Shown here piece after piece: positions 15,351-42,348 of a stretch of DNA of 64,000 nt (position 1 is its first letter; each line of letters begins with the position of its first letter). Both the position numbers and the translations under genes were made by a program. The stretch is taken from positions 310,001 through 374,000 of the forward strand of contig CP120454.1 of NCBI GenBank assembly GCA_034226945.1, in the 5' to 3' direction. Under the pieces are notes generated by a model. That model saw only the letters and a list, made by a program, of their open reading frames with translations. It made no database searches and had not been told where the DNA came from. Source of the stretch: Picochlorum sp. SENEW3 (lineage: Eukaryota).

Positions 15351-17324
15351 ATGTGCAGTAACTATTCATCAATATCAATGCAGAGGTTGCTTTTGCGCGC
15401 TGTTGAAGAGGGGGATGAGGGAAACAGCCCTGACAAGGAGGATGACCTGGCACGGAAGAGGACGGGAACGTTGCGAACGAGATCGTCGACTCGAAGAAAA
15501 TTACAGATGGAAACGAACCAAGAGAATGAATTGGTGAATACTGGTGAGGAATCTGTGGAGCCGGTGTTTTCTCGCAGAGGGAAGAGAGATAGAAAAGCAC
15601 TCAACGAGGCGAATACAAGGACGAGCCAGGTGCAGGCACGGTCGAGCACTGTTGGCAAGAGGAAAATGCGAGGAGGGCGTCTATCCGATGCACATGATAT
15701 CGCTGTAGTAGAGGAAGGTGAAGGACAGGGAAAGCCGTTGACAAATATGCGCAGTGTGAAGAAGCGGGCTGCTAGGAAGGACAAGGAAACTGTTATAGAA
15801 TCCAGTGTCCTGTCAGAGAGAGATGCCACGATGGACAGAGAATCTGATGATGAAGATATCTGTATAGACGATGCAGATGTACCGCAGACTGATGAGCACA
15901 TTGTTCCTTCCCCTGAACCTGTCCATCGTCACAAATCTGTTTGCCATGATGTGGGCAGCAGAGAGCACATGTGTCGGTGGCTGACGAAAAGCCTGGCACA
16001 TCCTTTGAGCATGGAAGCAAAAAGTGCAGGTATTCGACCTTCACTGCAAAAAGCTGTCGATTTCATCCAAGAAAACGTGAGGAATACGATTGAGAAATCG
16101 TTCAATAACTCAATCTTGGTCATTGGAGCTCCAGGCTCGGGAAAAAGCTTGGCAGTCTCGCGAGTATGCATGCAGGTTGATGAAGAACGGAACACGGACA
16201 AAAATGATCCACAGGTTGGCATTGTTAGACTATCTGGATGGGCATTCTCGGACGAAAAGGCCTCTTTCAGAGAAATAGCACGGCAGTTGTGTGAAAAGTT
16301 GCATTTGGACTTTGTCCGGACAGCTTCATATGGAGAAAATATTCAGTTCCTTCTGGCAGTTCTCAAAGCTCTTGCTGAATCCAACAAATCAGCACTTTTC
16401 ATTCTAGAAGACTTTGACTTGTTTGCACACAGCAATAAGCAAACATTCTTATACTGTCTCTTAGATTCGCTGCAAAAGAGCCATGCGCAGGCCATGGTGA
16501 TTGGGACAACGTGCAGATACGATTGCCTCAATCTCCTGGAAAAGAGAGTAAAGTCTAGATTTAGTCATAGAAATGTCATATTGACGCCACCAATATCCAC
16601 TGGAGATTGTCAAGACAAGAATAGCAATGGTGATGCTGAGGATGGAGCATTAGCCATCTTGGAGTCCATGCTCCAACTCCCAGAGAAGGAATATCCCCAA
16701 ACCAGTGCGGCGCGGAAGCATAATAAAAAGGTTCATGAGGCTGTCCATCACGCCAAGGTGTCTCAAGAAATGTCGAAATTCTTAGAATCCTCAAACAGCT
16801 TGCGCCAGATTGCCAACATTGCCAGAAAAGCAATCGCCATGTACTGCACGCAGGCAAAGTCCACTCTTTCTTCAGACATGATCCTCAAAGCATTCAACGC
16901 GGTCAAAACAAAGTCACTTCATGGGTATGTACCGCGCATATCCCGGCTGAGCGTCCTGGACTTGACAGTTCTTGTGTCTGCCTACAAGGCACACACATCC
17001 CGTGCTGATGGGCTTTTGAACTTTGAAATGATCCACCATGAGTTCCGATCATATGCTACATCGGGAGATCACGTAGACAATTATTCCAAAGCAGCAGCAA
17101 GCAAGGCGTTTGAGCACCTCATGTCCCAGGGAATAATAACCTTTTCAAGAGAGAGATCAGGCCCTCTCTGCCGCAGAGATAGAAACTATGCCTCAGTCCT
17201 ACTGCAAATCACCCGACAGGAGTTGATCGAAGGATTGAAATTCCACAAGCAATGCCCGATGAGACTGAGAGAATGGTGCACAAAGGAAGGAGGACCGCGG
17301 ATGACTGCAACATCATTCCTGTAG
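15351..17324 (+). CDS. ORC4: Origin recognition complex subunit 4
   Basis: NSILVIGAPGSGKS Walker A, ILEDFDLFAHSNKQTFLYCLLD and LLEKRVKSRFSHR are typical of ORC4. Long disordered N-terminal extension. Start is 15351 or 15378. Confidence 0.92.
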   Translation: MCSNYSSISMQRLLLRAVEEGDEGNSPDKEDDLARKRTGTLRTRSSTRRKLQMETNQENELVNTGEESVEPVFSRRGKRDRKALNEANTRTSQVQARSSTVGKRKMRGGRLSDAHDIAVVEEGEGQGKPLTNMRSVKKRAARKDKETVIESSVLSERDATMDRESDDEDICIDDADVPQTDEHIVPSPEPVHRHKSVCHDVGSREHMCRWLTKSLAHPLSMEAKSAGIRPSLQKAVDFIQENVRNTIEKSFNNSILVIGAPGSGKSLAVSRVCMQVDEERNTDKNDPQVGIVRLSGWAFSDEKASFREIARQLCEKLHLDFVRTASYGENIQFLLAVLKALAESNKSALFILEDFDLFAHSNKQTFLYCLLDSLQKSHAQAMVIGTTCRYDCLNLLEKRVKSRFSHRNVILTPPISTGDCQDKNSNGDAEDGALAILESMLQLPEKEYPQTSAARKHNKKVHEAVHHAKVSQEMSKFLESSNSLRQIANIARKAIAMYCTQAKSTLSSDMILKAFNAVKTKSLHGYVPRISRLSVLDLTVLVSAYKAHTSRADGLLNFEMIHHEFRSYATSGDHVDNYSKAAASKAFEHLMSQGIITFSRERSGPLCRRDRNYASVLLQITRQELIEGLKFHKQCPMRLREWCTKEGGPRMTATSFL

Positions 17325-30474: not shown

Positions 30475-33249
30475 TCATTTTCCTGACGAAAATTTCCTCT
30501 TATTCTTGGGTGGCTCCTTCACCTTTAACACTTCAACATCGATTCCAGAAGTTTCCAAAAATGATATCCATGCCCTCTGTTTATCAGAAAGGGTGTCTCT
30601 CGGGCCCTTTACCTCGGATAATTTTGCAGATTGTGTCTCAGGTCTCCACAACAGGAGGTCTGGCATGCCACCTGTCCAACTGGAATAGTCTTCACACATG
30701 AGAGAACAGACGGCTGCGATACCTGCTCCACCAACACAAGAGATGATGGATTGTATAGTGGCGAGATCGTACTTTTCCCAGGATATTCCTCTCACTGAGA
30801 CACCGTAATTATCTCGCCAGCACCTTTCCACGAGAAAAGGACCATTGCCTTGGCGTACATCGTGTAAAATCTGATCAATCGTTGATTTTCTAGATTCATA
30901 GAATCCTGGAAATCCCAAATCTAAAGGAGCTGTCTGAAATGGAGTCCGAAATACATTTGGAAGCGGTTGGAAGAGGGCAGGCCATAGCAACAGGCTGAAG
31001 ATTGTGCACCATATGCCTCCCTCACTGTGAATTCCTCGATAGCATCCTCCTTCGTCGGATGCATAATATTGTAAAGCTAGTTGCTCTACTGAGCAAACGC
31101 TAGAATCGTATCCCAAGAACCTACTTTTTCCGCCCCTGGTGTTCTCGAGAGGATTGCCTTCAATAACAAGAACGTTTGGGTCTTTGGGCATGAGCTTCGC
31201 CCACGACGGCTTTTTCCATCGCCTCGGAGGCTTTGCAAGTTTTAGTATTCTTCGCTGAAGTGTGAGCCTTTCGTCAGGACGGACGCTAGGATCTGCCAAT
31301 GCTGTCTCAGCAATCTCAAGGGAGTCAGTAGGTCTCCCAATATGTTCCAAATTGATCGATAATCTGATCCACCAATACCCTCGTCTTTCCTTACAGTATA
31401 TACCACCCAGAAGCTGTTGAAGCCTCTCAATCGCAAGTTTGTATTCTTTCTTTCTCTCCAGCATACCAATCCCGACAGTTGCCATGATACAGTAGATCCA
31501 TTTACTGTGGTACTGCATGTAAAAGGGGGGCTGGAGTCCATTCGAATCTGACATTTTGTTTTCTTGTCTATCCAAAAGTTTCCAAGCCGGAGCCAGATGG
31601 TATTCTATAGATTTGAAATCTTGTTCCTGGAAAAACAAAGCCATGTGATGCAGTCCTGACGACAAATGCAAGATGTGTTGATGACATACCTGTATTGCAT
31701 GAACCAACCTTTCAGCAGCAAATAAGGACCTCTCGTAGTCTAAAAATAGTTGTCTGTTGGGAAATACTTCCTGTTCACGAGTGATGGCATAAGCTGGATA
31801 ACGAATGTGGCCTGATTCGACTGCCTCCCAAGTCCCGAGAGAATGTCCTTCGTTCAGGAAAAATAACCGCTGAATCCTATGAAAGGACTGCCTATACTCC
31901 TTTGTCACCTCGAAAATATCTCCTGTTACATTGAAGATTACTTTCAGGGTAGCATCACGGCTCTCAGAATGCTTTGACGTCAAACAACTTGCTACATAAC
32001 CAACTAGCTCATCCTTCTTTTTTGTTCGCAGCCTCTTACTAGATACATCATGCATCAAAGCTTCTGCTTCAAAATTGCTCCCTTTTATCTGATCAATAAT
32101 ATCTATCAATTCTTTTTTCTGAAACACGTCACATAAAATTGATTTTATCGTTTCAGCATCCCTGGAAGGAGCATTATTTGCACCACTGCTCAATGACTCT
32201 TTCGTGTGGACTACTGCTAGCAAACCATGATCGCACAATTCCCGCAAAGATGCTGTCACATCCTTTGAATATCTATTTTCGAGAAAATGTATGGAAAAAT
32301 ATGTTTTCTGCTTTTGTGCTAGACTTGCAAATAAAATTTGGCCTGTGGATCCCTGTGACTGGAACAAAACCTTGAATCTCTTATCATTGTCGCCGAGCGC
32401 TTTTGACTCAATTTTTTCTACAACATCCAAGATTTGATGGACTCTTTGCAGTAAACGTGCTGAATACACACTGCTGTCCTTGTCAAGTCTGTGTATTTCT
32501 GCGACTTCTGCAAGCTCTTTGATACAATCATCCTTTGAACCAAATGATGATGGTGCTTTCACAAATGACAAAGATATCCTAACTGAGACATTTTTTATTC
32601 CCAGTGGCTCATGTAACAAAATACCTCGACCTTGAACAATGCCTGCTTTCAGCAAAGGACCAAGCTTTGCTGCAACAACTTGTGGCACATATCCAAGGGA
32701 ACCTGTACCGTCCCATGCCACAGCCAATGTCGCGTTGGGGTCATACCTGTTATCCTCATCCCAAACAAGCTTGAATTCATCCCCCTTGTTCACCACATGT
32801 TTCCCACAGAACCGTCTGCCCACAATCTGTGTTTCAAAAGACATCCCGTCATTTCCAGCAGACTGAGGCTCGACTGAGACATCACGGCCATCCAAAAGAT
32901 TCGCCTTATCACTGAAATTGGCTTTCCCATTCTGTACCACGGTCGAATCGCAAGATCTGGTCATCGTATGAAGCAGACTTCTCTGCTTCTTTGGTCTAGA
33001 CTGATGTGACCTTGTTAGGCAAATCTCCACGTGCTCGCTCATGACCAACTCACTTGAATCCCCATCGAATTCTTTCCAGCATATAGGACACTGATATCCA
33101 TCCCATGAAACAGTTTGTGCCGCACTTTCTTCTCGAGCGCCTTGTCCCGCCTTTTCACTGTCACTCGAGTCAACAAGACGAACATTTGGCCCCACAATCC
33201 TGCTCAGGGTACCCATCCCACGAATATATGATGTATTATTTGAAGACAT
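30475..33249 (-). CDS. FAN1: Fanconi-associated nuclease 1 (UBZ, HIRAN, VRR_NUC)
   Basis: CPIC...HVEIC UBZ finger, IVGRRF...NRYDPNA...LGYVP HIRAN domain, SVEQLAL, HSEGG and GGMPDLLLW...SEVKGPRDTLSDKQRAW nuclease motifs. Probable in-frame intron at ~31627-31689. Confidence 0.95.
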   Translation of the reverse strand: MSSNNTSYIRGMGTLSRIVGPNVRLVDSSDSEKAGQGAREESAAQTVSWDGYQCPICWKEFDGDSSELVMSEHVEICLTRSHQSRPKKQRSLLHTMTRSCDSTVVQNGKANFSDKANLLDGRDVSVEPQSAGNDGMSFETQIVGRRFCGKHVVNKGDEFKLVWDEDNRYDPNATLAVAWDGTGSLGYVPQVVAAKLGPLLKAGIVQGRGILLHEPLGIKNVSVRISLSFVKAPSSFGSKDDCIKELAEVAEIHRLDKDSSVYSARLLQRVHQILDVVEKIESKALGDNDKRFKVLFQSQGSTGQILFASLAQKQKTYFSIHFLENRYSKDVTASLRELCDHGLLAVVHTKESLSSGANNAPSRDAETIKSILCDVFQKKELIDIIDQIKGSNFEAEALMHDVSSKRLRTKKKDELVGYVASCLTSKHSESRDATLKVIFNVTGDIFEVTKEYRQSFHRIQRLFFLNEGHSLGTWEAVESGHIRYPAYAITREQEVFPNRQLFLDYERSLFAAERLVHAIQVCHQHILHLSSGLHHMALFFQEQDFKSIEYHLAPAWKLLDRQENKMSDSNGLQPPFYMQYHSKWIYCIMATVGIGMLERKKEYKLAIERLQQLLGGIYCKERRGYWWIRLSINLEHIGRPTDSLEIAETALADPSVRPDERLTLQRRILKLAKPPRRWKKPSWAKLMPKDPNVLVIEGNPLENTRGGKSRFLGYDSSVCSVEQLALQYYASDEGGCYRGIHSEGGIWCTIFSLLLWPALFQPLPNVFRTPFQTAPLDLGFPGFYESRKSTIDQILHDVRQGNGPFLVERCWRDNYGVSVRGISWEKYDLATIQSIISCVGGAGIAAVCSLMCEDYSSWTGGMPDLLLWRPETQSAKLSEVKGPRDTLSDKQRAWISFLETSGIDVEVLKVKEPPKNKRKFSSGK

Positions 33250-33569
33250 ATCCTCTATTATGAATCCTATCACCAAATATCTATCAAAATGAACAGGTCA
33301 ATGCTTTAAGCAACAACCGACACCAGTTTTGCTTACATCTTGGAGCCAGACATGAAACACAAAGGCAAAACACGTGCTACTGGTCGTCATATTATTTATT
33401 TAACGCATTACATGCATGTATGAATTTACATACATGTAATTAATTAGTGTGGGTTACAGCACCAGCCTGGGAGTTCCCGCTCAATGGAGGGACTGGATCG
33501 ACCGATCGAATCCGTCCATTTGGGGCCCCGCTCCAGACATTATTGGCAATACAAGGAATGAAGATAAAA

Positions 33570-33730
33570 GGAACAGCTTCGTTGGGATTCTCTACAGGTA
33601 TAAGAGAATTACTCCTCGCACACTGAGTAATATTTTATGAAATGGATATTTTATGAAACCTTAGCTTAAGACGCATCTTTTGGTATACTTTTTGATAACA
33701 TCGGTGCAATATTGGTGACGCGAGAGGCGA
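33570..33730 (+). repeat. Left terminal inverted repeat of MULE
   Basis: Reverse complement of 39032-39192 with 5 mismatches by manual comparison. Contains ATATTTTATGAAA twice. Confidence 0.97.
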
Positions 33731-33981
33731 TTCTTTGTGGATCTTTCTCGATCTTGTTCATATTCCCCATCAATTATCGTCTTTGACAGGGTTTGCGTCA
33801 GTCGAGGATACATTAACTGCTCATTAGACCAGGATCGCCTAGTTAGTGACTCATACCATATATTTCTTGCATATTTAATAAGAAAATCAGTATGTATAGT
33901 TAATTCTTTCATTCAGATGAGCAGGACGTGCTGTGCCACGCGGGGAAAGAGCCCAACCACCAGTTGTTAGTTGGTCTCGCG

Positions 33982-36528
33982 ATGGAGAAAGGTCTAGGTC
34001 CGTTTCCTTGGATGAGCACTAATTTGAACTTTCAATTTTATGCTTCAATGGATTTTGGTGAATTGTAGAGGTGATAAACCGGGTGACACTAGCTCTCGAG
34101 CAGGGCGAGGACTCGTCAACCGGTTTTGACAAAATATGCAACGAATCTGCGCGATTACGACTTCGAAACAAAGAGAAGTTGCTAGAAAAAACTGTTTATA
34201 TGTGTCATCGGGGTCCTCGAAAGAACAAAAGCAGGGAACCAAAAAATGGAAGGCGTCACGTCAATTCCAAGAAAGATATCGAGTGCTGTTATGAAATGTG
34301 GGTTGTCGTATTCGCATCTGAGCCCCAAAATCGTTATTTTATCACTGTACATGGTCATACTGGCCATGATCCCGAGAATAATCCTCAAGAGAGGAGGTGG
34401 TTGAACTCCCTCGAGCAAGGAGTAGTTGAGAACTATTGCTTCAAAGTACGTCTCCATGTTGAAAAGTGTTCGGAATAAAGACTATCTTATACATGTATAT
34501 TTTTGTAGCTGTTTCCCCTGATGACTCCCGCACAGATATTGGATCAACTGCATCAAGGAGTGACACCAGGGGATTTTTCCAATTCGCTTGCATCCCTGAC
34601 CCTTGACCGGATCAAAGCAATTCAACAGAAATATTGGAGAAGAAGTCGTATATGCGATAAAGATAGTGATGCTGTACGAAAATTAATACACGCTCCAAAT
34701 TTCCCGCTGTTGTCTTGCTCCAAAGATTTGAAAAAAGGGTTGTCCATAAAGAGTGCAGATGTCCTACATTATGTACATCGCACGGAGGGTTTTCACATTG
34801 TTATATGCTCCAAGGCGCAGTCTTTACTTTTAAGGAAGCTTGGTGATCTCGTTTTCTTGGATGCAGTTCACGGAACGACAAAGTATGGGTATTTGAACTT
34901 AACAATGCTTGTCCTTGATGAATTTGGTCATGGATTTCCTGTTGCGTTTATGCTTTCACAGACAGAGACATCGAACGATTGGAATTTCCTAATCAAATCA
35001 GTATTTGAGGTCGGTTAACATGCCCTGCTACCTTGCTGTAACCTGAATAATGACAAGTTATGGATTCTTGCAGAAATCTGGAAGGGATCCTTCCAGGACA
35101 ACATTCATGATCGACAAGAGCACAACAATTAGAGCAGCAATAGATCAAGTGGGTGGGAATTACTTCCTCTGCATATTTCATATGATGCAGGATATAGACC
35201 GTCGCCTAAACAGGCATGTTGCTGGCATTCAGTCCAAAAAGAAGTCCAAGATAAAGGGCCGAATAAATTATGAGATCACAACCCTGCGTCACATTAGGGA
35301 TGAGGGAATCTTCCTTGATAGGAGTAGAGCTTTCAAAAATAGAATTCTACAAGATCCGAGAGGAATGTCTAATGTCGCGGGTTTCGTGACGTACTATGAG
35401 AAGAATTGGGAGGCTTGTGCAGACAAATGGGCTGCATTTGGGAGATTGGAATTCGCAGAATACCAGCAAGACACTAATAATTTGATCGAATCCTTTTTCA
35501 GACAGTTGAGAAACCGCCATTGTAGAGATAAAAAGACACGACTAGATGAGCACTTGCGTGTATTGGCATACAACGTCATTCCTACCTATCTGCGGAGGAG
35601 GAGCAGCATTGAAATGGGTCTGATGGGGTCAAAAAATAAAGAGTCGAACGAGATTTTAGAGAATCAGGTTCTCCAGATGATCAAAGGAGGACTTTTTAAA
35701 CTAGATGACACTTCCACTGGGACTGGGTTCGTGCATTATAAAAAGAGTGTCAATTGGTTCTGCATGGCAGAGTTGTCCTGTACATGCCAAAGGAACTCTG
35801 TTGTCTGTGTCCACATAGAAGCAGCTTTTAGACACTTTGGGTCAAATAATGTACAATTTACGTATGAAATATTGCTAAAACACGCAGACTATCTCAGAAA
35901 AAGTGGAGCTGTAAAGTTTGTGTCTGGGACAGAAGATCGTGCAATCACACATGTAGCACCTCCATCGTGGTCCAGATCCTTGGATAATAAAAACCGAATG
36001 TACTATATAGATTCCGGTAGGAGAGTATGCACATGCCCAATGTTCCAGTGCATGAAATTCTGCGGCCACATTCTTGCTACAGTTGCAGATGCAGTGCTGG
36101 AAAATTTGAATGACTACGGCCTAGACTATAGATCTGTGATGCCTGCACATGTTTTTCAACATCCCAGAATCTGTACTGCTCGGCACAGAGACCTCTCAAT
36201 ACAGATAAACGATGAATTGGCATCGTGCCTTGAGCAAGAATGTTCACTGCAACTAGAAAGATCAGACGAGCCCATAGGATATGAATTATCATCTTTAGCC
36301 TCAAGCACAAAACTGCGGCAAATTTGTTGGAGGATTCCTGAGGAGAAGCAAGAAGAAGCGGCTGAGATGATTGAAGAGTTAACGCACATTTTGGAAAAGA
36401 ATTTCCTGCTCTCTGAATTACCCACAACATTCACAAAAGAGACAGTCGAGGTTGAGAAAAAGCGAAAATATTCTAGAATCAGTACAGACAGAAAATACAA
36501 GCCTTTGTTTCCCGTCCTTAAAAAATGA
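33982..36528 (+). CDS. MULE DDE transposase with N-terminal FAR1/WRKY-GCM1-like Zn finger and two SWIM fingers
   Basis: Exons ~33982-33997, 34069-34445, 34509-35009 and 35074-36528 join in frame. Motifs: VFLDAVHGTTKYG (D1), FMIDKS (D2), CIFH (CxxH), TNNLIESFF (E), CTC..CVH and CTC..CGH. True start uncertain. Confidence 0.93.
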
Positions 36529-36550
36529 TGCAACTGCCAATCAAACCTTG

Positions 36551-38855
36551 TTACATGTCACTCAATATCCCATGCACTTTAAGTCTGATTTGATGAACGA
36601 GATGAGGAGAAAATACCCATGCCTGGATGAGCGACTGCATTTTTTGCTTATCAATGCGGACACTGCTTTTATCAGTCAGTATTACTCTCTTTTCTATCAG
36701 ATCCACCAAAGATTTGATACATGCAAGGGTGTATGGACCACAGTCATTGCTGTTTCTCTGCCTAGGTGATGAGCAAGACTCAACATGGACGTCCTGAAAG
36801 TCAGGCGTCTCCCCTCTTTTCTTAAAACAGCCCGCATGGAGAAAAAATCGAACACTCTCAATATCTACACAGTCTGTGTGATTGGAGATCGAATCCAAGT
36901 GCAGGATGAAAGTGCCCTGATGGTCAAGGGGATTCCCGATGATCAGAAGGCTCCAGTGATGCGATACAAAACAATTAGGGACTAGCAATAAATCGACATC
37001 TGGAATTTTGGTCCATAAATGACTCATGCTTTGCAAATCTCCGTTCCGCTTTAGAATGGACCCGTAGAGGTATGGCTGGCAAACCCATGCATACTGGAGA
37101 CAGTTAGCATCTGCAACTAAATTCCTGTAGATATCAGCCAAGCGACCGTTCGTGTGCATGGCATAAGCCGCAATTTCTGTACAATTAAACCACAGCGTCT
37201 CATCATCCCTGAGGGCGATCAAACGGTCCGGAGAGGATGTAATCCTCCTTTGAGAAGCTTCAGCCAATCTTCGATACTCCTCAACTAACGCATGATCGTC
37301 CTCTTCCTCTAGAAGAGTATCATCACCTTGATCTGGCGTTATTGTCTCAGTGGAACTTGGATACTGATAGATACGTGTTTTTGTCTTTCGGACGACCTGG
37401 AAATTGAGCCCCATTTTCAAGAGAAGTTCATTCAGATCATCGGTGCCCTTTGAAATGCTGGCCTTAAAGCCCACAGATTCCCCACTGACGACATTTTGTT
37501 TCTTGGACGCAATGCAATGTAAAAGCTTCGTTGAAAATCTCCTGCTTCTAGTACAACCGTCCAAGAGCACTTCGCAGCGGCTGACGCTATAACTGGTAAT
37601 AGTGCCTCGCTTTCCAATGCAGTTACGTTCGCTTGCACCAACGACAACTACTCGATCACCTGTGCAAGATGGGTCAACTCTCTCCTTCACAGGCGTCACG
37701 ATCAATTTATCTAGCAAACATGGCCTCATTCTTTGCTGCTTTGAGCCCTCCCATTCGACGCTTGCCTGTTGTGTTGCCTTGTGGAGTTTTGTCACCACCC
37801 CTGTATTGAAAGTGGCTACATTGTACACTGTTGTTCCAACCTCAATCTTGCTTGGATCTTGATCCGGAACAAAACTTTCTTCAGAATCACTTTGCGCATC
37901 AGACAATTCTGGCATTATCTCTTTATGTCTGCGCTGCTTCATTCCAATATGGCCCTGCAAGCGAGGGAGCACTGCACCGCTAAAATACACTGCAGCACTA
38001 GAAATCATTTCCGGAATGCCATCCTGCTCCTCTATACTTATAACTTTTTGCCTTGATTCAGTTGGTGTATGACAAATTGCAATCAAGACTGGATTCAGCT
38101 TGCAATAATCATCTGTCATTCCCAGTAGAGGCCCACCCTCAGAGAGAGATGCAAGCTTTTGCTGCATGTGGTCCTGGATCAGGAAAAGTTGCAACTTTGC
38201 CTGCAACGGACCTAAGAGTCGTATAAACCCTTTCAAGTAACGATTTAGCTTTCATGATCACATACCTGAAGCCACACATCCTCTGGTATTTTACCATTTC
38301 CAAGGTACCTCGTGAAGAATTTCAAGAATATTAAATCGTCTCCCTCCACCCAGTACGGCGAATGCTCTATTGTCGTTGTGACATATGGCTTCTTGCTATA
38401 GAATAGAGTCTTTGGAAAATCACATATCTGCTCGTAACTATTCACACTACCCTGCATGTACAGTTAAACTTGTGTATGCGGTCTCGGAATTTCAGAAGCA
38501 ACTGTCGAGGCCGCACCATCTCACTCGCAGTCTCCACCAAAATGTTCATATATTCTGTATCGTTTCTTTTCTTTTCGAGCATCTGATCCTTCAAGCGGCA
38601 CATCTTTCGGTTGTGATAGACTTTCTCATCCGTAATTTTCAACAGACCTGGAATGTCGTCTGTATCGAGCACGTACTTCTGGAGTTCATTCCACCTATCG
38701 GATCCAATATCTTCATTCCCTAAAAGCCTCTGTGCAAATTTACTGTGGGTAAGTCCTCGCGCACGTAACTTGTCAACGACTTCGTCGCTCAAATTTTCAA
38801 AATCATGTGCGAGCTGAACTTCATAATCCGTCGGGGTCCGTGCTGAGCGTGTCAT
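36551..38855 (-). CDS. Transposon-encoded Ulp1/SENP-like (C48) cysteine protease with tandem SH3/KOW-like modules, ~724 aa
   Basis: Exons 38855-38517, 38451-38266 and 38200-36551 splice in frame via GT-AG introns. Catalytic motifs LLLVPNC..HHWSLLII, HLDSI and PRQRNSNDCGPY are present. Confidence 0.88.
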
Positions 38856-39031
38856 TTTTTCTCTGAATTTATACTTCCTCAATCATAATTCAAAATATAT
38901 AGAGTGGAAAGGATATCGGCCGGTGCCAGGACTTGGTCAGGTACCCGTCCGCAACGGGTATGCTTATAATGTCAATGATGTCCGATTCAAGACCCTTCCC
39001 GACCGTAGAAATCTCGTAAATCTTCGCCTTT

Positions 39032-39192
39032 TCGCCTCTCGCGTCACCAATATTGCACCGATGTTATCAAAAAGTATACCAAAAGATGCGTCTTGAGCTA
39101 AGGTTTCATAAAATATCCATTTCATAAAATATTACTCAGTGTGCGAGGAGTAATTTTCTTATACCTGTAGAGAACCCCAACGAAGCGGCTCC
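39032..39192 (-). repeat. Right terminal inverted repeat of MULE
   Basis: Inverted copy of 33570-33730, followed directly by TSD AAGATAAAA. Confidence 0.97.
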
Positions 39193-39575
39193 AAGATAAA
39201 ACTATAAGAACAACCAAAAAGGGCAAAATTTCGACTCGAGATACAACTCCTCCTGTGATTAACCCACTGACACAGGGAGAAGAAGAGTGTCGCAGCAACT
39301 CTAGCAGGTAAAACTGTCATAAACGACCTTGATCCAGAGCACTGTAAGAGCACACATTTCCAGCGAGGAGTATCCATTCAAAGAAAGCAGATGCATCACA
39401 TGTTCATAATTTTGAGATAGATGACCGATGTAAGAGAGTGGAATGGAAGACATTCCAATAGAATGTTCGTGAAACATACAAATGCAAGATAGAAGAGCAC
39501 TGTCATATTCTCCCAGAGCCCGGCTCTTGTGGTGTCCAACACCGGGAGGTTTGAAATATGGTGGGTAGGTGCAGA

Positions 39576-40301
39576 TCAGCCTCTTCTATTGGGATCCAAC
39601 TTGCCTTGTTTTGCTAATTTTATCACTGACGGTGGCGCTTCATAGTGCAACAATTTGTCAATCAGAGCAGCCGGATCAGAGTCTTCTAGTAAGATTGCTC
39701 TACTCGCTGGTCGAATGAATTCTTCAGACGTGGCGTGGTCCAGAAATTCTACGAATTTGTCAAAGTACCCGTTGATATTCAAAAGCCCCACTGGTTTGTA
39801 ATGCAAACCCAATTGCTGCCACGTGGATATCTCAATTGTCTCATCCAATGTACCTAGACCACCTGGAATAGCTATGAAAGCATCTGCCTCTTCAAACATC
39901 TTGGCCTTTCTGGAGTGCATATCTCTAACAACTACAGTCTTTCCAACGGTTTTGCCGCTCACCTGCATGGGCAAATCATATATATACGACCTCAATGGAT
40001 CTGATGTTGATTTTGTATCCGATTATTGTGCACCTCATACCTCACGATCCTCAAGATAGTCTGGAATCACGCCTAAAACACCGTCGTCTCCCAACCCTCG
40101 GTACACTGTTTCAGCAATAACGCCCATCAGGCCCACGTTACCGCCTCCATATACCAATCCAATATTCCTTTTGACCATCTCTTCACCTAGAAGAACTGTT
40201 TGAGCAGCATACTGTTTGTTTCTGCCGATGCTAGACCCGCAGAAAACTGCAACTTTTTTGAAATCTTTCGTGGTGGTATGCGCCATGATCACTTTCTGCA
40301 T
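39576..40301 (-). CDS. LOG: LOG family (cytokinin riboside monophosphate phosphoribohydrolase / lysine decarboxylase-like)
   Basis: VAVFCGSS, LVYGGGNVGLMG, MHSRK and PGGLGTLDE motifs. Intron at ~39963-40040. Confidence 0.93.
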
Positions 40302-41094
40302 TATTTTTTCTCAATATTTCCGTGTTGAATACAGACATAGAGGGATTGGAAGGATTATTCAATCATGCGGGATACCTACCGAACTCCTTATTGGAGAACC
40401 TCAGCCCATCAGGATTTCAAACTGCTGGCGCATGCATGCGAATGCATATGCAGGTCTTGGAGCTCGAGCGGATACCCAACAGTTCAATCTAAAACAGATT
40501 CAAAACAGGCCTCCATCGTTTGACCGTCGCTGAGGGAGAATGCGTGGGATGAAGACAATATCCGATCTCAGGCATACTTTGATGGGTACCCTTTCATCTA
40601 TCAGGGAACAGTCATCCAACCGACAATCCGAGAATTTGAAATTGGTGGCACATGCAGTGCCCTCTCTCATACGTAATTTATACGTAATCACTTTCTCAAA
40701 ATATTCAAAAACGTTTTGACGTCCGTGATTCGTTGCACATTGGTGACAGCGATACAAACCCAGCATATAGACCACCCACGTCAAATCTCATTCGATTCGA
40801 CTTGAACGCAAGTTTCACGCCACGCTCATATTTATGCATCCAAGCCTACAAGTATGTTTTTTTCATTTTTTTTGAATATTTTGTGCACATGGATGGGTGT
40901 TTTGCGATGAATGACTCGGACCTTGCGTGCTGCTACAAAGCAAGGCAACGGTTTCCCTTGCTATTGCTTTGGGTGCACGGTTTTGTGCCATGCATTGTTT
41001 TCTTCCATCGCACTAGACTAATCATAAGACTCTTATGTATCATATGTGTGCAGACATACACTAAACGATAGTTTTGTTTCGTAAAGTGAGAAGG

Positions 41095-42348
41095 ATGGCT
41101 TGCCAGGCTGAGGCAAAGGCTGCTGCCCAGGAGGCCGTTTTATCGGAGAACAAAGAAGGTAACAGCAATATTATCACTACATGTGCTGTTACAACAAGTT
41201 CAACATCTTCCACGAAAATTAGTGCTCCAGAGGTGGAGACTGCTGAGACCTGGGGACAATGCCTTGGGAACAACCAGGTTGATCATCTGCAAAAGCCTGT
41301 AGCTGGCATTAGCATGTCCAGGCATGCTATTAAGAATCGCAGAAGGCGTGCTGCACGACGTGCCAAGAACGCTGTGGATAAAATCCGCGTGAAAGAAGAT
41401 AAGGAGGAGGGAGAAACAGTGGCCACACCAAGGATTCGGGCAGTGCAGGATTTCAAGCCTGCTATTGATTTGGAGAGCATCGCAAATCAGGTATCAGTTG
41501 ATAATGGTAATAGAGATACGTTGAGCAAGCAAGTGGAGGTACATCACCCAAAATGGCTGAGGAGTACAGCTCAACTCTTTTGGGTGGAGTCAACTGAGGA
41601 GAAACAGCATGAATTCTACTACGGAGAGGAGTTAGATGCTCATGAGAAGATATATTGTGTCCTCCATTCAATTGATGACTCTTGTCTCTCCCATGATGGT
41701 TATGAACGACCAGTATATTCGGGAAATTGGCATGACTGGGAGCAGCTCTGTAGTCCATGCAAGGGTCGAGGCGAAACCCCAAAATTGTATATTCATAAAA
41801 TTCGCTTCATTGGCATGGATACAAAGTCAGCGATATTTTATCAAACGGTGGATGAACAGTTGAACTACCATACATTTACTGCTGATGGTACCCCAGTGCA
41901 TACTGCCCAGATGTTGGAATGGCACGAAAGAGAGTTTAATCGCCGATGCAAGTCATCGAGAGATTTTGAGGCATTGATTGACGAGAAAGAAGTGGAGCTT
42001 GCTGAGTCCTGTGGCATAACATATGGTCCGGATGGGAACCCGAATGCAGAGACATTATCCAACTTGGAATACGGCGGTGTAGTTTTCAGGGGGAGACCAA
42101 GAACTGTTTACAGTCATGTTATGGTACCCACCGGAAGGGACAAGGACGGAAATATCATTCAAAAGCACGAGTATACCAAGACATTGCTGGCATACAAATC
42201 ATTCTATAGAGTTATGTCAACAAGCAACAAGGAGATATACCACTTTGGAGGAGAGCAATTATTTTACCAGTCGGGTCAACCTTGTGTACAGCTGTACGGG
42301 AATCCTGAAGCAAATGTCGATACATTTCAGGAGTCTGTATATCTTTGA
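41095..42348 (+). CDS. Hypothetical protein (no family recognised)
   Basis: Uninterrupted ~417-codon frame containing an Arg-rich patch (KNRRRRAARRAK) and a globular-looking C-terminal half. Confidence 0.7.
   Translation: MACQAEAKAAAQEAVLSENKEGNSNIITTCAVTTSSTSSTKISAPEVETAETWGQCLGNNQVDHLQKPVAGISMSRHAIKNRRRRAARRAKNAVDKIRVKEDKEEGETVATPRIRAVQDFKPAIDLESIANQVSVDNGNRDTLSKQVEVHHPKWLRSTAQLFWVESTEEKQHEFYYGEELDAHEKIYCVLHSIDDSCLSHDGYERPVYSGNWHDWEQLCSPCKGRGETPKLYIHKIRFIGMDTKSAIFYQTVDEQLNYHTFTADGTPVHTAQMLEWHEREFNRRCKSSRDFEALIDEKEVELAESCGITYGPDGNPNAETLSNLEYGGVVFRGRPRTVYSHVMVPTGRDKDGNIIQKHEYTKTLLAYKSFYRVMSTSNKEIYHFGGEQLFYQSGQPCVQLYGNPEANVDTFQESVYL

What the first reader, a model, noticed from the sequence alone, without database searches (positions are those of the whole stretch)
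33561..39201. Intact two-gene Mutator element carrying a SUMO/Ubl-protease gene in a compact algal genome
Seen in sequence: 161-bp TIRs (5 mismatches), a perfect 9-bp TSD, and two spliced genes without stops or frameshifts. The genes read inward from each TIR and end 22 bp apart (36528/36551). Established: 9-bp TSDs and long TIRs define Mutator elements, maize MuDR has the same convergent mudrA/mudrB layout, and ULP-carrying MULEs are known from flowering plants (Kaonashi, CUMULE). Inference: this is a recent and possibly active element whose second gene is a dedicated accessory factor, for example deSUMOylating the transposase or host silencing proteins. I am not aware of such an element being described in a chlorophyte.
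Basis: partly seen in the sequence, partly recalled or inferred. Interest (0 to 1): 0.85.

Follow-up and report, generated by a model that had tools for sequence, protein, structure and literature searches.

The report
Mobile two-gene Mutator transposon in Picochlorum
This is an intact and probably still mobile Mutator-type jumping gene in the tiny green alga Picochlorum that carries, next to its transposase, a SUMO-protease-like gene which has travelled with that transposase for a very long time.

Summary
Two 161-bp terminal inverted repeats (156/161 identical) enclose 5,623 bp and are flanked by a perfect 9-bp duplication, AAGATAAAA. Contigs from other public runs join 33560 directly to 39193 with one copy of those 9 bases, which is an exact empty site.

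Gene A has 4 exons and 782 aa. It is a MULE/SWIM transposase with DDE, CxxH and zinc-finger residues conserved. Gene B has 3 exons and 724 aa. It carries a Peptidase_C48 (Ulp1/SENP) domain with His, Asp, Gln and Cys conserved, behind tandem KOW/Tudor-like barrels. The genes converge and end 22 bp apart.

Both products are identical to annotated proteins of Picochlorum sp. SENEW3 and P. renovo, where at least 4 transposase models exist. One transposase intron is spliced in a metatranscriptome contig.

Five diverged subfamilies (transposase 33-65% identical, protease 24-59%) each have both genes on one contig, and the pairwise identities track each other. The protease is therefore an old, conserved partner and not a fresh capture. 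What it does is still inferred.

C48 accessory genes are already known in plant MULEs, and ULP domains in animal Mutator elements, so this is a new member of a known kind. I found no report from a green alga. Interest is moderate.

The parts
33561..33569 (.). Left target-site duplication, AAGATAAAA
   Evidence: The empty-site joint with 9 shared letters is.
33570..33730 (+). Left terminal inverted repeat, 161 bp
   Evidence: 156/161 identical to the right TIR.
33630..33658 (+). Two copies of ATATTTTATGAAA, 16 bp apart, inside the left TIR. They are candidate protein-binding sites (inference).
   Evidence: 4 exact copies in the window, all in the two TIRs. The fifth match has 1 mismatch and lies outside the element. 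0 of 100 shuffles reached 5 matches.
33982..33997 (+). Transposase gene, exon 1 (ATG at 33982)
   Evidence: The model equals P0057.
34069..34445 (+). Transposase exon 2, carrying the N-terminal C..C..H..H zinc finger (C51, C78, H102, H105)
34509..35009 (+). Transposase exon 3, with the start of the MULE/RNase-H-like domain and the first catalytic Asp (D249)
   Evidence: The intron 34446-34508 is spliced in an RNA contig.
35074..36528 (+). Transposase exon 4, with D312, C331/H334, E437, two SWIM-type CxC..CxH motifs and a conserved C-terminal motif. The stop is at 36526-36528.
36529..36550 (.). 22-nt spacer between the two convergent stop codons
36551..38200 (-). ULP gene exon 3. It holds the tandem beta-barrels (aa 289-408 of the 724-aa protein) and Peptidase_C48 (aa 573-695), with H590, D611, Q656 and C662.
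38266..38451 (-). ULP gene exon 2
   Evidence: The model equals P0135.
38517..38855 (-). ULP gene exon 1 (ATG at 38855-38853). It is a conserved N-terminal region with the motif VLDTDDIPGLL and no family assignment.
39104..39132 (-). The two ATATTTTATGAAA copies of the right TIR
39032..39192 (-). Right terminal inverted repeat, 161 bp
39193..39201 (.). Right target-site duplication, AAGATAAAA

Best explanation
The 5,623-bp stretch 33570-39192 is an autonomous, recently mobile Mutator-like element (MULE) of the green picoalga Picochlorum. It is inserted between a FAN1-like gene and a LOG/lysine-decarboxylase-like gene.

Shown here: the anatomy, the intact coding capacity, the presence/absence polymorphism, the multiple identical copies, a spliced transcript, and the long co-inheritance of the two genes.

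Inferred mechanism of movement: the 782-aa DDE transposase binds the 161-bp TIRs, perhaps at the paired ATATTTTATGAAA motifs. It cuts the element out and reinserts it across a 9-bp staggered cut, which becomes the duplication.

Inferred role of the second gene: the 724-aa protein has an unassigned N-terminal region, two KOW/Tudor/SH3-like barrels and a catalytically complete Ulp1/SENP-type C48 protease. It is a trans-acting accessory factor that the family has kept under selection.

My committed guess for its action, at about 40%, is this. It removes SUMO (or a related modifier) from chromatin or silencing proteins at the element's own copies, brought there by its non-catalytic domains, and so keeps the element expressed and transposable. 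About 30% goes to action on the transposase or on SUMO-dependent break-repair factors during excision and integration.
For: Structure.

Transposase.
- The model is identical to P0057.
- Pfam gives MULE 43.4 bits (cut-off 27.6), ZSWIM1-3 RNaseH-like 35.4 and SWIM 27.3.
- D249, D312, E437, C331/H334, the N-terminal C/C/H/H and the SWIM C/C/C/H are invariant in 5 of 5 aligned family members that are 37-52% identical to it.

Protease.
- Peptidase_C48 scores 51.6 bits.
- A profile of 5 family members hits SENP1 (2xph, E 4.9e-7) across most of its catalytic domain. The family's HW, D-S, Q and D-C-G columns align with those of SENP1.
- H, D, Q and C are invariant in 11 of 11 sequences.

Mobility and youth.
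- X2 holds a 5,485-nt contig with 7 differences.
- X18 holds a contig in which the TIR end at 33570 follows 112 unrelated letters, which is another insertion site.
- One identical 782-aa transposase carries 4 P. renovo accessions.
- 17 of the 24 listed runs, from several studies, hold half or more of the sampled words.

Expression.
- The joint 34445->34509 (63 nt, GT..AG) is in 1 contig of an oligo-dT metatranscriptome.
- In a sister subfamily, complete ORFs for both genes lie on one MMETSP transcript of P. oklahomense, g.6208 and g.6209.

Co-inheritance. In five subfamilies (W, S1-S4) both genes are tied to one contig. The ties are adjacent accessions or locus tags, equal contig lengths, or DNA read directly: the window, and L001/L002, where the genes converge as here. 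The ten pairwise identities run 32-65% for the transposase and 24-59% for the protease, with r = 0.98; the pairs are not independent. The two trees do not conflict.

Not a host copy. Only 40 of 1.84 billion representatives match at E <= 1e-3. Every full-length match (central barrel region plus C48 domain) is a protein of this same build, and the weaker C48-only matches are at 23-43% identity over short stretches.
Against: - No transposition event was observed. Activity is inferred from polymorphism and sequence identity.
- The empty-site contigs may come from other copies of a repeated flank and not from the same locus. That still fixes the boundaries, but it weakens the claim that this particular site is polymorphic.
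- The RNA evidence is thin: one spliced contig at depth 4.2. The unspliced ULP contig in the same library could be DNA.
- TIRs and TSDs of the sister subfamilies were not seen.
- For other ULP clusters (P0009, P0011/P0046, P0071, P0073, P0076) no transposase partner could be looked up.
- The first of the two tunnel tryptophans of SENP1 (recalled) aligns with Met or Asp in the window's subfamily, so substrate handling may differ from classic SUMO proteases.
- Nothing here shows what the protease cleaves or that transposition needs it.
- The fold model was poor (mean pLDDT 42), and only residues 114-233 of exon 3 were confident.
Confidence: 0.82

Rival explanations
1. Pack-MULE-type passenger. 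The protease gene is a recently captured piece of a host ULP gene with no role for the element.
For: Gene capture by MULEs is common in plants, and the Arabidopsis ULP-MULE genes are described as transduplicated (PMC13317346, passages read). The SENEW3 annotation names sister copies 'Ubiquitin-like-specific protease 1D'.
Against: - The gene is full length, with H, D, Q and C invariant in 11 of 11 sequences.
- It accompanies the transposase in five subfamilies that have diverged to 24-59% (protease) and 32-65% (transposase) in parallel.
- No close host homologue exists: the full-length matches are all proteins of the same build, and the remaining matches among 1.84 billion representatives are C48-only, at 23-43% identity over short stretches.
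Confidence: 0.04
2. Fossil or domesticated pair. The element is fixed and immobile, and the two genes now serve the host.
For: There is only one copy in the window. No transposition was observed. The genes are annotated as ordinary host genes in public records.
Against: - An exact empty site and a second flank at the TIR end are seen.
- At least 4 identical transposase models exist in P. renovo.
- The TIRs are 97% identical and the TSD is perfect.
- Internally deleted derivatives of a sister subfamily occur in two separate collections (L001 and L002), as expected of a living transposon family.
Confidence: 0.05
3. Same element, different job for the protease. It acts on the transposase itself or on SUMO-regulated DNA-break repair and replication factors at the donor and target sites. 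In this it would resemble maize MURB, which binds the MURA N-terminus and is needed for new heritable insertions. It would not be acting against silencing.
For: - MURA residues 1-209 bind MURB (PMC12973397, section 2.3 read).
- Bao and colleagues proposed that Ulp1/OTU domains of transposons act on repair pathways (PMC2836005, discussion passage).
- The layout is convergent as in MuDR.
- A Phaeodactylum MULE carries an E3 ubiquitin-ligase-like ORF (bioRxiv 10.1101/2023.01.02.522487, legend passage), which is another link between MULEs and ubiquitin-like pathways.
Against: There is no evidence of contact between the two proteins. The KOW/Tudor-like barrels (Z 7-8.8, middling) are as compatible with chromatin or polymerase binding as with anything else.
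Confidence: 0.3

Closest known systems
MuDR of maize (mudrA/mudrB)
   Same: Long TIRs and a 9-bp TSD. There are two genes transcribed convergently from the ends, a MULE/SWIM-type transposase plus an accessory protein (layout recalled; MURA-MURB binding from PMC12973397 section 2.3; two ORFs from PMC6446971 introduction passage).
   Different: The accessory gene here is a C48 protease with barrel domains. No comparison with MURB was run. The host is a chlorophyte with a ~14-Mb genome.
Kaonashi / KIU-carrying VANDAL elements of Arabidopsis, CUMULE of melon, and ULP-MULEs of rice and grapevine
   Same: A Mutator-superfamily element that carries a Ulp1-like C48 domain gene, conserved over long times, with a suspected role in helping the element (PMC13317346 passages; PMC2836005).
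   Different: Those Arabidopsis elements are described as non-TIR MULEs with three genes, and the ULP domain sits in a VANC-type protein. Here there are 161-bp TIRs, two genes, and non-catalytic parts (N-terminal region, tandem barrels) that match no Pfam family. Sequence relationship to KIU proteins was not tested.
Recently active TIR-MULE clusters of the green lineage with Peptidase_C48 accessory proteins
   Same: An autonomous MULE with long TIRs and a separate accessory protein bearing Peptidase_C48. This is found in 120 of 1846 active MULE clusters (PMC12973397 Table S6).
   Different: In the held supplement text Picochlorum appears only in the species list (Table S1) and not among the clusters. 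Which of the 120 clusters, if any, are algal could not be seen.
Mutator and Ginger1 transposases with fused Ulp1 domains (hydra, lancelet)
   Same: A Ulp1-type protease associated with a cut-and-paste transposon (PMC2836005 abstract, table and discussion passages).
   Different: There the protease is a domain of the transposase protein. Here it is a separate, convergent gene.
Phaeodactylum tricornutum MULE mobilised into UMPS
   Same: A microalgal MULE with ~200-bp TIRs, a 9-bp TSD, a MULE+SWIM transposase and a second ORF from a ubiquitin-like pathway (bioRxiv 10.1101/2023.01.02.522487, passages).
   Different: It is a diatom element of 3.7 kb, and its second ORF is E3-ligase-like, not a C48 protease. 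Its transposition was seen directly, which is not the case here.
SENP1/SENP2/Ulp1 SUMO proteases
   Same: The C48 catalytic domain aligns over most of its length, with His, Asp, Gln and Cys in place (E 4.9e-7 to 2xph, 5.6e-4 to Ulp1 1euv).
   Different: Identity is low. The protein has element-specific N-terminal and barrel domains. The substrate is unknown.

Membership tests
Mutator-like elements (MULE superfamily, class II TIR transposons) | Target-site duplication of about 9 bp | tested here: met
   There is a perfect 9-bp AAGATAAAA on both sides. The empty-site joint shares exactly 9 letters.
Mutator-like elements (MULE superfamily, class II TIR transposons) | Long terminal inverted repeats (about 100 bp or more) | tested here: met
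   161 bp, 156/161 identical.
Mutator-like elements (MULE superfamily, class II TIR transposons) | Transposase with the MULE DDE domain (Pfam PF10551) and the D, D, E and CxxH residues | tested here: met
   PF10551 scores 43.4 bits against a cut-off of 27.6 on the full protein. D249, D312, E437, C331 and H334 are invariant in 5 of 5 sequences. That these columns are the catalytic ones is inferred from motif context (recalled).
Mutator-like elements (MULE superfamily, class II TIR transposons) | SWIM zinc finger downstream of the catalytic core | tested here: met
   PF04434 scores 27.3-29.1 bits against a cut-off of 19.6. C534, C536, C543 and H545 are invariant.
Mutator-like elements (MULE superfamily, class II TIR transposons) | N-terminal WRKY/FAR1-type DNA-binding zinc finger | tested here: inconclusive
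   C51, C78, H102 and H105 are invariant, but there is no Pfam FAR1 hit at E <= 0.05.
Mutator-like elements (MULE superfamily, class II TIR transposons) | Mobility (insertion polymorphism or new insertions) | tested here: met
   An empty-site contig is seen in X17 and X18, a different flank at 33570 in X18, and a near-identical copy in X2. Direct transposition was not observed.
MuDR-type two-gene elements | Two convergent genes between the TIRs | tested here: met
   Gene A lies on + and gene B on -, and their stops are 22 nt apart.
MuDR-type two-gene elements | Second gene homologous to mudrB | not tested
   No MURB sequence was at hand. The second gene's only family hit is Peptidase_C48.
KI-MULE / Kaonashi (ULP-carrying VANDAL) elements | Mutator-superfamily element encoding a Ulp1-like C48 domain | tested here: met
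KI-MULE / Kaonashi (ULP-carrying VANDAL) elements | Non-TIR ends and the three-gene vanA/vanB/vanC layout, with the ULP domain in VANC (as described in PMC13317346) | tested here: not met
   The TIRs are 161 bp and only two genes lie between them. Homology of the non-catalytic parts to VANC was not tested.
Ulp1/SENP cysteine proteases (MEROPS C48) | Pfam PF02902 above the curated cut-off | tested here: met
   51.6 and 51.2 bits against 20.7. Sister subfamilies score 26.6-48.2 bits.
Ulp1/SENP cysteine proteases (MEROPS C48) | Catalytic His, Asp and Cys, and the oxyanion Gln | tested here: met
   H590, D611, Q656 and C662 (exon-3 numbering 415, 436, 481, 487) are invariant in 11 of 11 sequences. 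They align to the HW, DS, QQ and DCG columns of SENP1.
Ulp1/SENP cysteine proteases (MEROPS C48) | Cleavage of SUMO (or another ubiquitin-like modifier) conjugates | not testable with these tools
   This needs an enzyme assay.

The most novel reading that the evidence does not exclude
The transposase and the deSUMOylase-like protein form an ancient, obligate two-protein transposition module, and they define a whole MULE lineage of picoalgae.

The protease, steered by its KOW/Tudor-like barrels and N-terminal region, switches off SUMO-dependent silencing at the element's own copies.

The youngest subfamily has recently crossed between Picochlorum lineages by introgression or horizontal transfer. 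Its 1,506 aa of protein are identical in SENEW3 and P. renovo records, while two host proteins differ by several percent.

That would make Picochlorum, a fast-growing and transformable alga, the first simple system in which the long-unexplained link between ULP proteases and transposons can be tested by genetics.
Probability: 0.25. Interest if true: 0.72.

Novelty: new member of a known kind. Interest (0 to 1): 0.5.

Why it matters
Ulp1-type proteases turn up again and again in transposons: plant MULEs and CACTA elements, animal Mutator and Ginger elements, and a Naegleria pogo-like element in this scan. Nobody has shown what they do there.

This case is unusually clean.
- The element is small, complete and apparently live.
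- The genome is ~14 Mb and repeat-poor. DNA transposons were reported as 0.35% of the SENEW3 nuclear genome (PMC11092101 passage).
- Five co-diverging subfamilies show that the protease is a long-kept partner and not debris.

[quoted passage not shown] The accessory role could therefore be tested directly, and the element might serve as an insertional mutagen.

There is also a practical point. Public annotations list these transposon genes as host genes ('Ubiquitin-like-specific protease 1D', 'hypothetical protein').

Tried and rejected
- No whole genome is held for the window. TIR copies, other TSDs and orthologous empty sites could not be counted directly.
- Earlier findings of the scan: nothing for this genome or sequence. 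One loosely related note turned up.
- Collection scans that found nothing:
  - ULP alignment in metagenome contigs: 263 pattern matches, 0 confirmed.
  - Transposase and ULP alignments in viral contigs: 53 and 39 matches, 0 confirmed.
  - Transposase alignment in genome contigs: 53 matches, 0 confirmed.
- The second metagenome scan gave 4 loci from 137 pattern matches. L003 and L004 hold only diverged, fragmented transposase pieces with no ULP match and were not pursued.
- Rfam at gathering thresholds found 0 matches and ARAGORN found 0 tRNA genes in the window.
- A permissive Rfam scan of the left flank gave only chance-level miRNA hits. I had suspected a tRNA-derived SINE there, and that idea is not supported.
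- No inverted repeat links the two flanks.
- ESM Atlas: for exon 3 only scores of 0.77 to C48 clusters. For the N-terminal 178 aa there was no usable hit.
- The N-terminal 175 aa of the protease protein have no Pfam hit at E <= 5 and no PDB sequence hit better than E 0.55.
- A transposase profile against PDB gave nothing below E 0.66.
- The AlphaFold model of exon 3 was poor (pLDDT 42) and says nothing about the C48 fold.
- The VIA search gives only a generic small-barrel fold for residues 114-233.
There is no result either way.
- My first splice guess for ULP intron 1 (38450..38396) broke the frame. It was replaced by 38516..38452, which matches the database models.


Full report
**What is there.** The window is gene-dense eukaryotic DNA at about 44% G+C, with long open frames and short introns. 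Between 33570 and 39192 lies a 5,623-bp unit.
- It is bounded by 161-nt inverted repeats that are 156/161 identical and lose all similarity at their inner edges.
- The 9 bases AAGATAAAA stand directly outside both ends.
- No other copy of the unit or its ends is present in the 64 kb.
- Each repeat holds two exact copies of ATATTTTATGAAA, 16 bp apart. These are the only four exact copies in the window.

**The boundaries are confirmed by other people's data.** 20 of the 24 listed public runs hold the stretch or a part of it, and 17 hold half or more of its sampled words. I laid four of them on 31500-41500. All four are Logan contigs, so depth and absence mean little.
- One contig of X17 (probable DNA) and one of X18 (oligo-dT metatranscriptome) join 33560 to 39193. 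They skip 5,632 bases, with 9 letters fitting either side. This is the empty site with a single AAGATAAAA.
- X19 shows the matching loose ends.
- X2, a different organism label, has a 5,485-nt contig over 33576-39059 with 7 differences.
- X18 has a contig in which the left end (33570 onward) follows 112 unrelated letters, which is a different insertion site.
- Caveat: the immediate flanks show 4-14 times higher summed depth and alternative joints. The empty-site contigs may therefore come from other copies of a repeated flank. They still define the insertion precisely.

**The genes.**
- Gene A (+) has exons 33982-33997, 34069-34445, 34509-35009 and 35074-36528. Its GT-AG introns are 71, 63 and 64 nt, and it gives 782 aa.
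- Gene B (-) has exons 38855-38517, 38451-38266 and 38200-36551. It has two 65-nt introns and gives 724 aa.
- The models were chosen with the help of database proteins and are identical to them. Gene A equals P0057 (four P. renovo accessions) and contains P0054 (Picochlorum sp. SENEW3 WPT13259.1, partial). Gene B equals P0135 (SENEW3 WPT13260.1 and two P. renovo accessions).
- The 63-nt intron of gene A is spliced out in one X18 contig of depth 4.2.
- The stops lie 22 nt apart.

**Gene A is a Mutator transposase.** Pfam MULE scores 43.4 bits, ZSWIM1-3 RNaseH-like 35.4 and SWIM 27.3. Single exons score lower, as expected. In an alignment with four relatives at 37-52% identity, the following are invariant: D249, D312, E437, C331/H334, an N-terminal C51/C78/H102/H105 set and two CxC..CxH motifs. 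No solved structure is related by sequence.

**Gene B is a three-part protein.**
- The C-terminal part is Peptidase_C48 (51.6 bits against a cut-off of 20.7).
- A profile of five family members finds SENP1, SENP2, SENP7, Ulp1-like and Ulp2 chains. The best is 2xph, at E 4.9e-7, over residues 26-202 of 238. The family's His-Trp, Asp, Gln and Asp-Cys-Gly columns align with those of SENP1.
- These four residues are invariant in 11 of 11 sequences. That they are the catalytic residues of SENP1 is recalled knowledge.
- The middle part (exon-3 residues 114-233) was the only confident part of a poor AlphaFold model (mean pLDDT 42). It folds as two small beta-barrels. Its best structural neighbours are KOW, Tudor, chromo-barrel and SH3-like domains at Z 7-8.8, which the tool itself rates as middling.
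- The N-terminal 175 aa are about 50% identical to sister proteins and contain an invariant VLDTDDIPGLL. They match no family or structure. Reading that motif as a SUMO-interaction motif is only my guess.

**Host and copies.** Named records place the element in Picochlorum (Trebouxiophyceae): SENEW3, P. renovo and, for a sister subfamily, P. oklahomense.
- In P. renovo the identical transposase has four accession numbers. These sit beside protease models with neighbouring numbers (P002273/P002274, P004084/P004085, P005231/P005232).
- One P. renovo protease model (P0008) is mis-spliced into the antisense strand of the transposase and loses the C48 domain.

**Is the protease a lasting partner?** The word-index searches found few relatives: 6 proteins at E <= 1e-3 for each gene. 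The exhaustive search found 40 in 1.84 billion representatives, 5 of them below 1e-30. Cluster look-ups then tied transposase and protease clusters together:
- W: the window itself, and SENEW3 locus tags 00001103/00001104 on one 1,562,225-bp contig.
- S1: WPT14170.1/WPT14169.1 on one 1,257,191-bp contig, P. renovo NNA_002300/002299, and both proteins on a 6,203-bp contig.
- S2: both on contigs of 6,365 and 6,063 bp.
- S3: both on contigs of 5,264 and 4,813 bp, and both complete ORFs on MMETSP Transcript_3058.
- S4: both on a 5,140-bp contig.

Equal contig length is an inference of co-location. For S4 I also read the DNA. In L002 the transposase (+, aa 437-525, 99%) runs into a convergent protease gene (-) whose 275-aa frame is 99% identical to residues 1-262 of P0070, a 568-aa protein with a C48 domain. 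L001 shows the same arrangement. These two contigs come from different collections. They are internal-deletion derivatives lacking the 3' halves of both genes, which is typical of a living cut-and-paste family.

Pairwise identities of the five pairs run in parallel. For example W-S1 is 46.8% for the transposase and 44.6% for the protease, S1-S2 is 64.5 and 59.3, and S3-S4 is 35.9 and 24.2. Over ten non-independent pairs r = 0.98. Both trees group S1 with S2, and the protease tree leaves W and S3 unresolved.

For further protease clusters (P0009 at 63%, P0011/P0046, P0071, P0073, P0076) no partner could be looked up, so the count is 5 linked and the rest unknown. Full-length matches all have the same build, and several other listed proteins of 290-330 aa match only the barrel region. 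The weaker C48-only hits are at 23-43% identity over short stretches. A recent capture from a host ULP is therefore very unlikely.

**Age.** The two element proteins (1,506 aa) show no difference between SENEW3 and P. renovo records.
- By contrast the window's FAN1-like protein differs from the P. renovo model at 25 of 787 aligned positions, and from the two BPE23 haplotypes at 28 and 32 of 909.
- The ORC4-like protein differs from BPE23 at 13 substituted positions of 647. It differs from a P. renovo fragment at about 10 of 146 positions before that model goes astray.
- At DNA level, X2 differs at 7 of 5,485 positions in the element but at 28 of 1,599 in four flank contigs. I left out two depth-2 contigs with 26-15 differences. 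X17 differs at 28 of 2,633 positions in the element against 25 of 964 in the flanks.
- The element thus looks younger than the split of its hosts. Divergent haplotypes in these diploid algae could mimic part of this effect. Two genes and one flank are not a genome-wide test.

**Site.** The element sits about 260 bp upstream of the FAN1-like frame (30475-33297, -; VRR_NUC, FAN1_TPR and HIRAN). It lies downstream of a LOG/lysine-decarboxylase-like gene (39576-40310, -). That gene's transcript contigs in X19 run through the empty site.

**How it most likely works.** The following is shown: a complete MULE with an intact DDE transposase, precise insertion with a 9-bp duplication, polymorphism, several identical copies, splicing, and a protease gene conserved with it across deep divergence.

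The following is inferred. The transposase recognises the TIRs and performs cut-and-paste. The protease is needed in trans. I favour removal of SUMO from chromatin or silencing factors at the element (about 40%), by analogy with the ULP-bearing VANC proteins of Arabidopsis VANDAL elements and because of the chromatin-reader-like barrels. Second comes action on the transposase or on SUMO-controlled repair factors (about 30%), by analogy with MURB, which binds the MURA N-terminus. A direct test of contact between the two proteins could not be completed.

**What is known already.**
- I read passages of PMC2836005. It reports Ulp1 domains in Mutator transposons of hydra, lancelet, Arabidopsis, maize, rice and melon and in Ginger1 transposases.
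- I read passages of PMC13317346. It describes Kaonashi/KIU as transduplicated Ulp1 in non-TIR MULEs, with VANC-type anti-silencing.
- I read one passage of PMC6446971. It covers extra ORFs in MULEs, and the terms ULP, C48, alga and Chloro do not occur in its text.
- For PMC12973397 I read passages, section 2.3 and supplement look-ups. It surveyed 1007 green-lineage genomes, including Picochlorum sp. SENEW3. Peptidase_C48 occurs in accessory proteins of 120 of 1846 active MULE clusters. Picochlorum appears only in the species table of the held text.
- I read passages of bioRxiv 10.1101/2023.01.02.522487, which describes a diatom MULE with an E3-ligase-like second ORF.
- Picochlorum genome papers (PMC11092101, PMC6141220, PMC9615354) and the Auxenochlorella paper PMC12636532 contain no 'MULE' and no transposon sense of 'Mutator' in their main text. 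I searched them by term only.
- Full-text searches combining Picochlorum, green alga, Chlamydomonas, Mutator, MULE, Ulp1 and Peptidase_C48 gave no description of such an element in a green alga.
- Repbase, Dfam, subscription journals and the supplements of preprints could not be searched.

**Verdict.** It is a new member of a known kind, a MULE with a C48 accessory gene. What is notable is the host (a genome-reduced chlorophyte), the apparent current activity, and the clear evidence that protease and transposase have evolved together. Interest is 0.5.

Noticed in passing
window 33413-33560 and 39202-39592: The DNA directly around the element behaves like a separate insertion or repeat. Contigs of X2 and X17 join 33413->39588 (56 other letters between) and 33432->39592 (20 letters between). 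Loose ends cluster at 33436-33442 and 39557, and summed contig depth is 4-14 times that of neighbouring bins. No inverted repeat links the two sides and there is no Rfam match.
   Followed up: partly
window 39140-39192: One X2 contig matches only from 39140 outward and is preceded by 255 unrelated letters. It is either a truncated copy or a related element that shares only the outer ~53 bp of the TIR.
   Followed up: no
window 33570-39192 against host genes 30475-33297 and 15351-17321: The element's proteins are identical in SENEW3 and P. renovo records (0 of 1,506 aa differ). The FAN1-like and ORC4-like host proteins differ by several percent, and in X2 the element differs 13 times less than its flanks. 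This may reflect spread between lineages.
   Followed up: partly
L001:994-2939 and L002:2-1545: These are internal-deletion derivatives of a distant sister subfamily. The transposase is cut at residue 525 and the convergent protease gene after residue ~262, so both 3' halves are lost. They were found in two different collections.
   Followed up: yes
window 36156-38855 (-): Public gene models treat these transposon genes as host genes. One P. renovo model (P0008) splices the protease N-terminus into the antisense strand of the transposase and drops the C48 domain. SENEW3 names sister copies 'Ubiquitin-like-specific protease 1D'.
   Followed up: yes
L004:2475-3494: A 6,149-bp metagenome contig carries fragmented, 38-50% identical pieces of the transposase N-terminal half. 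It has no C-terminal half and no protease match. It is either a decayed or an intron-rich distant relative.
   Followed up: no
window 31626-31688 and 39961-40038: Two minus-strand introns of the neighbouring FAN1-like and LOG-like genes are spliced out in contigs of run X19 (CT..AC on the + strand). This confirms that both neighbours are expressed in a related organism.
   Followed up: no
window 15351-17321: The ORC4-like protein shares its 90% cluster with a 1,177-aa SENEW3 record named 'Triosephosphate isomerase'. That record is probably a gene model fused with a neighbour.
   Followed up: no
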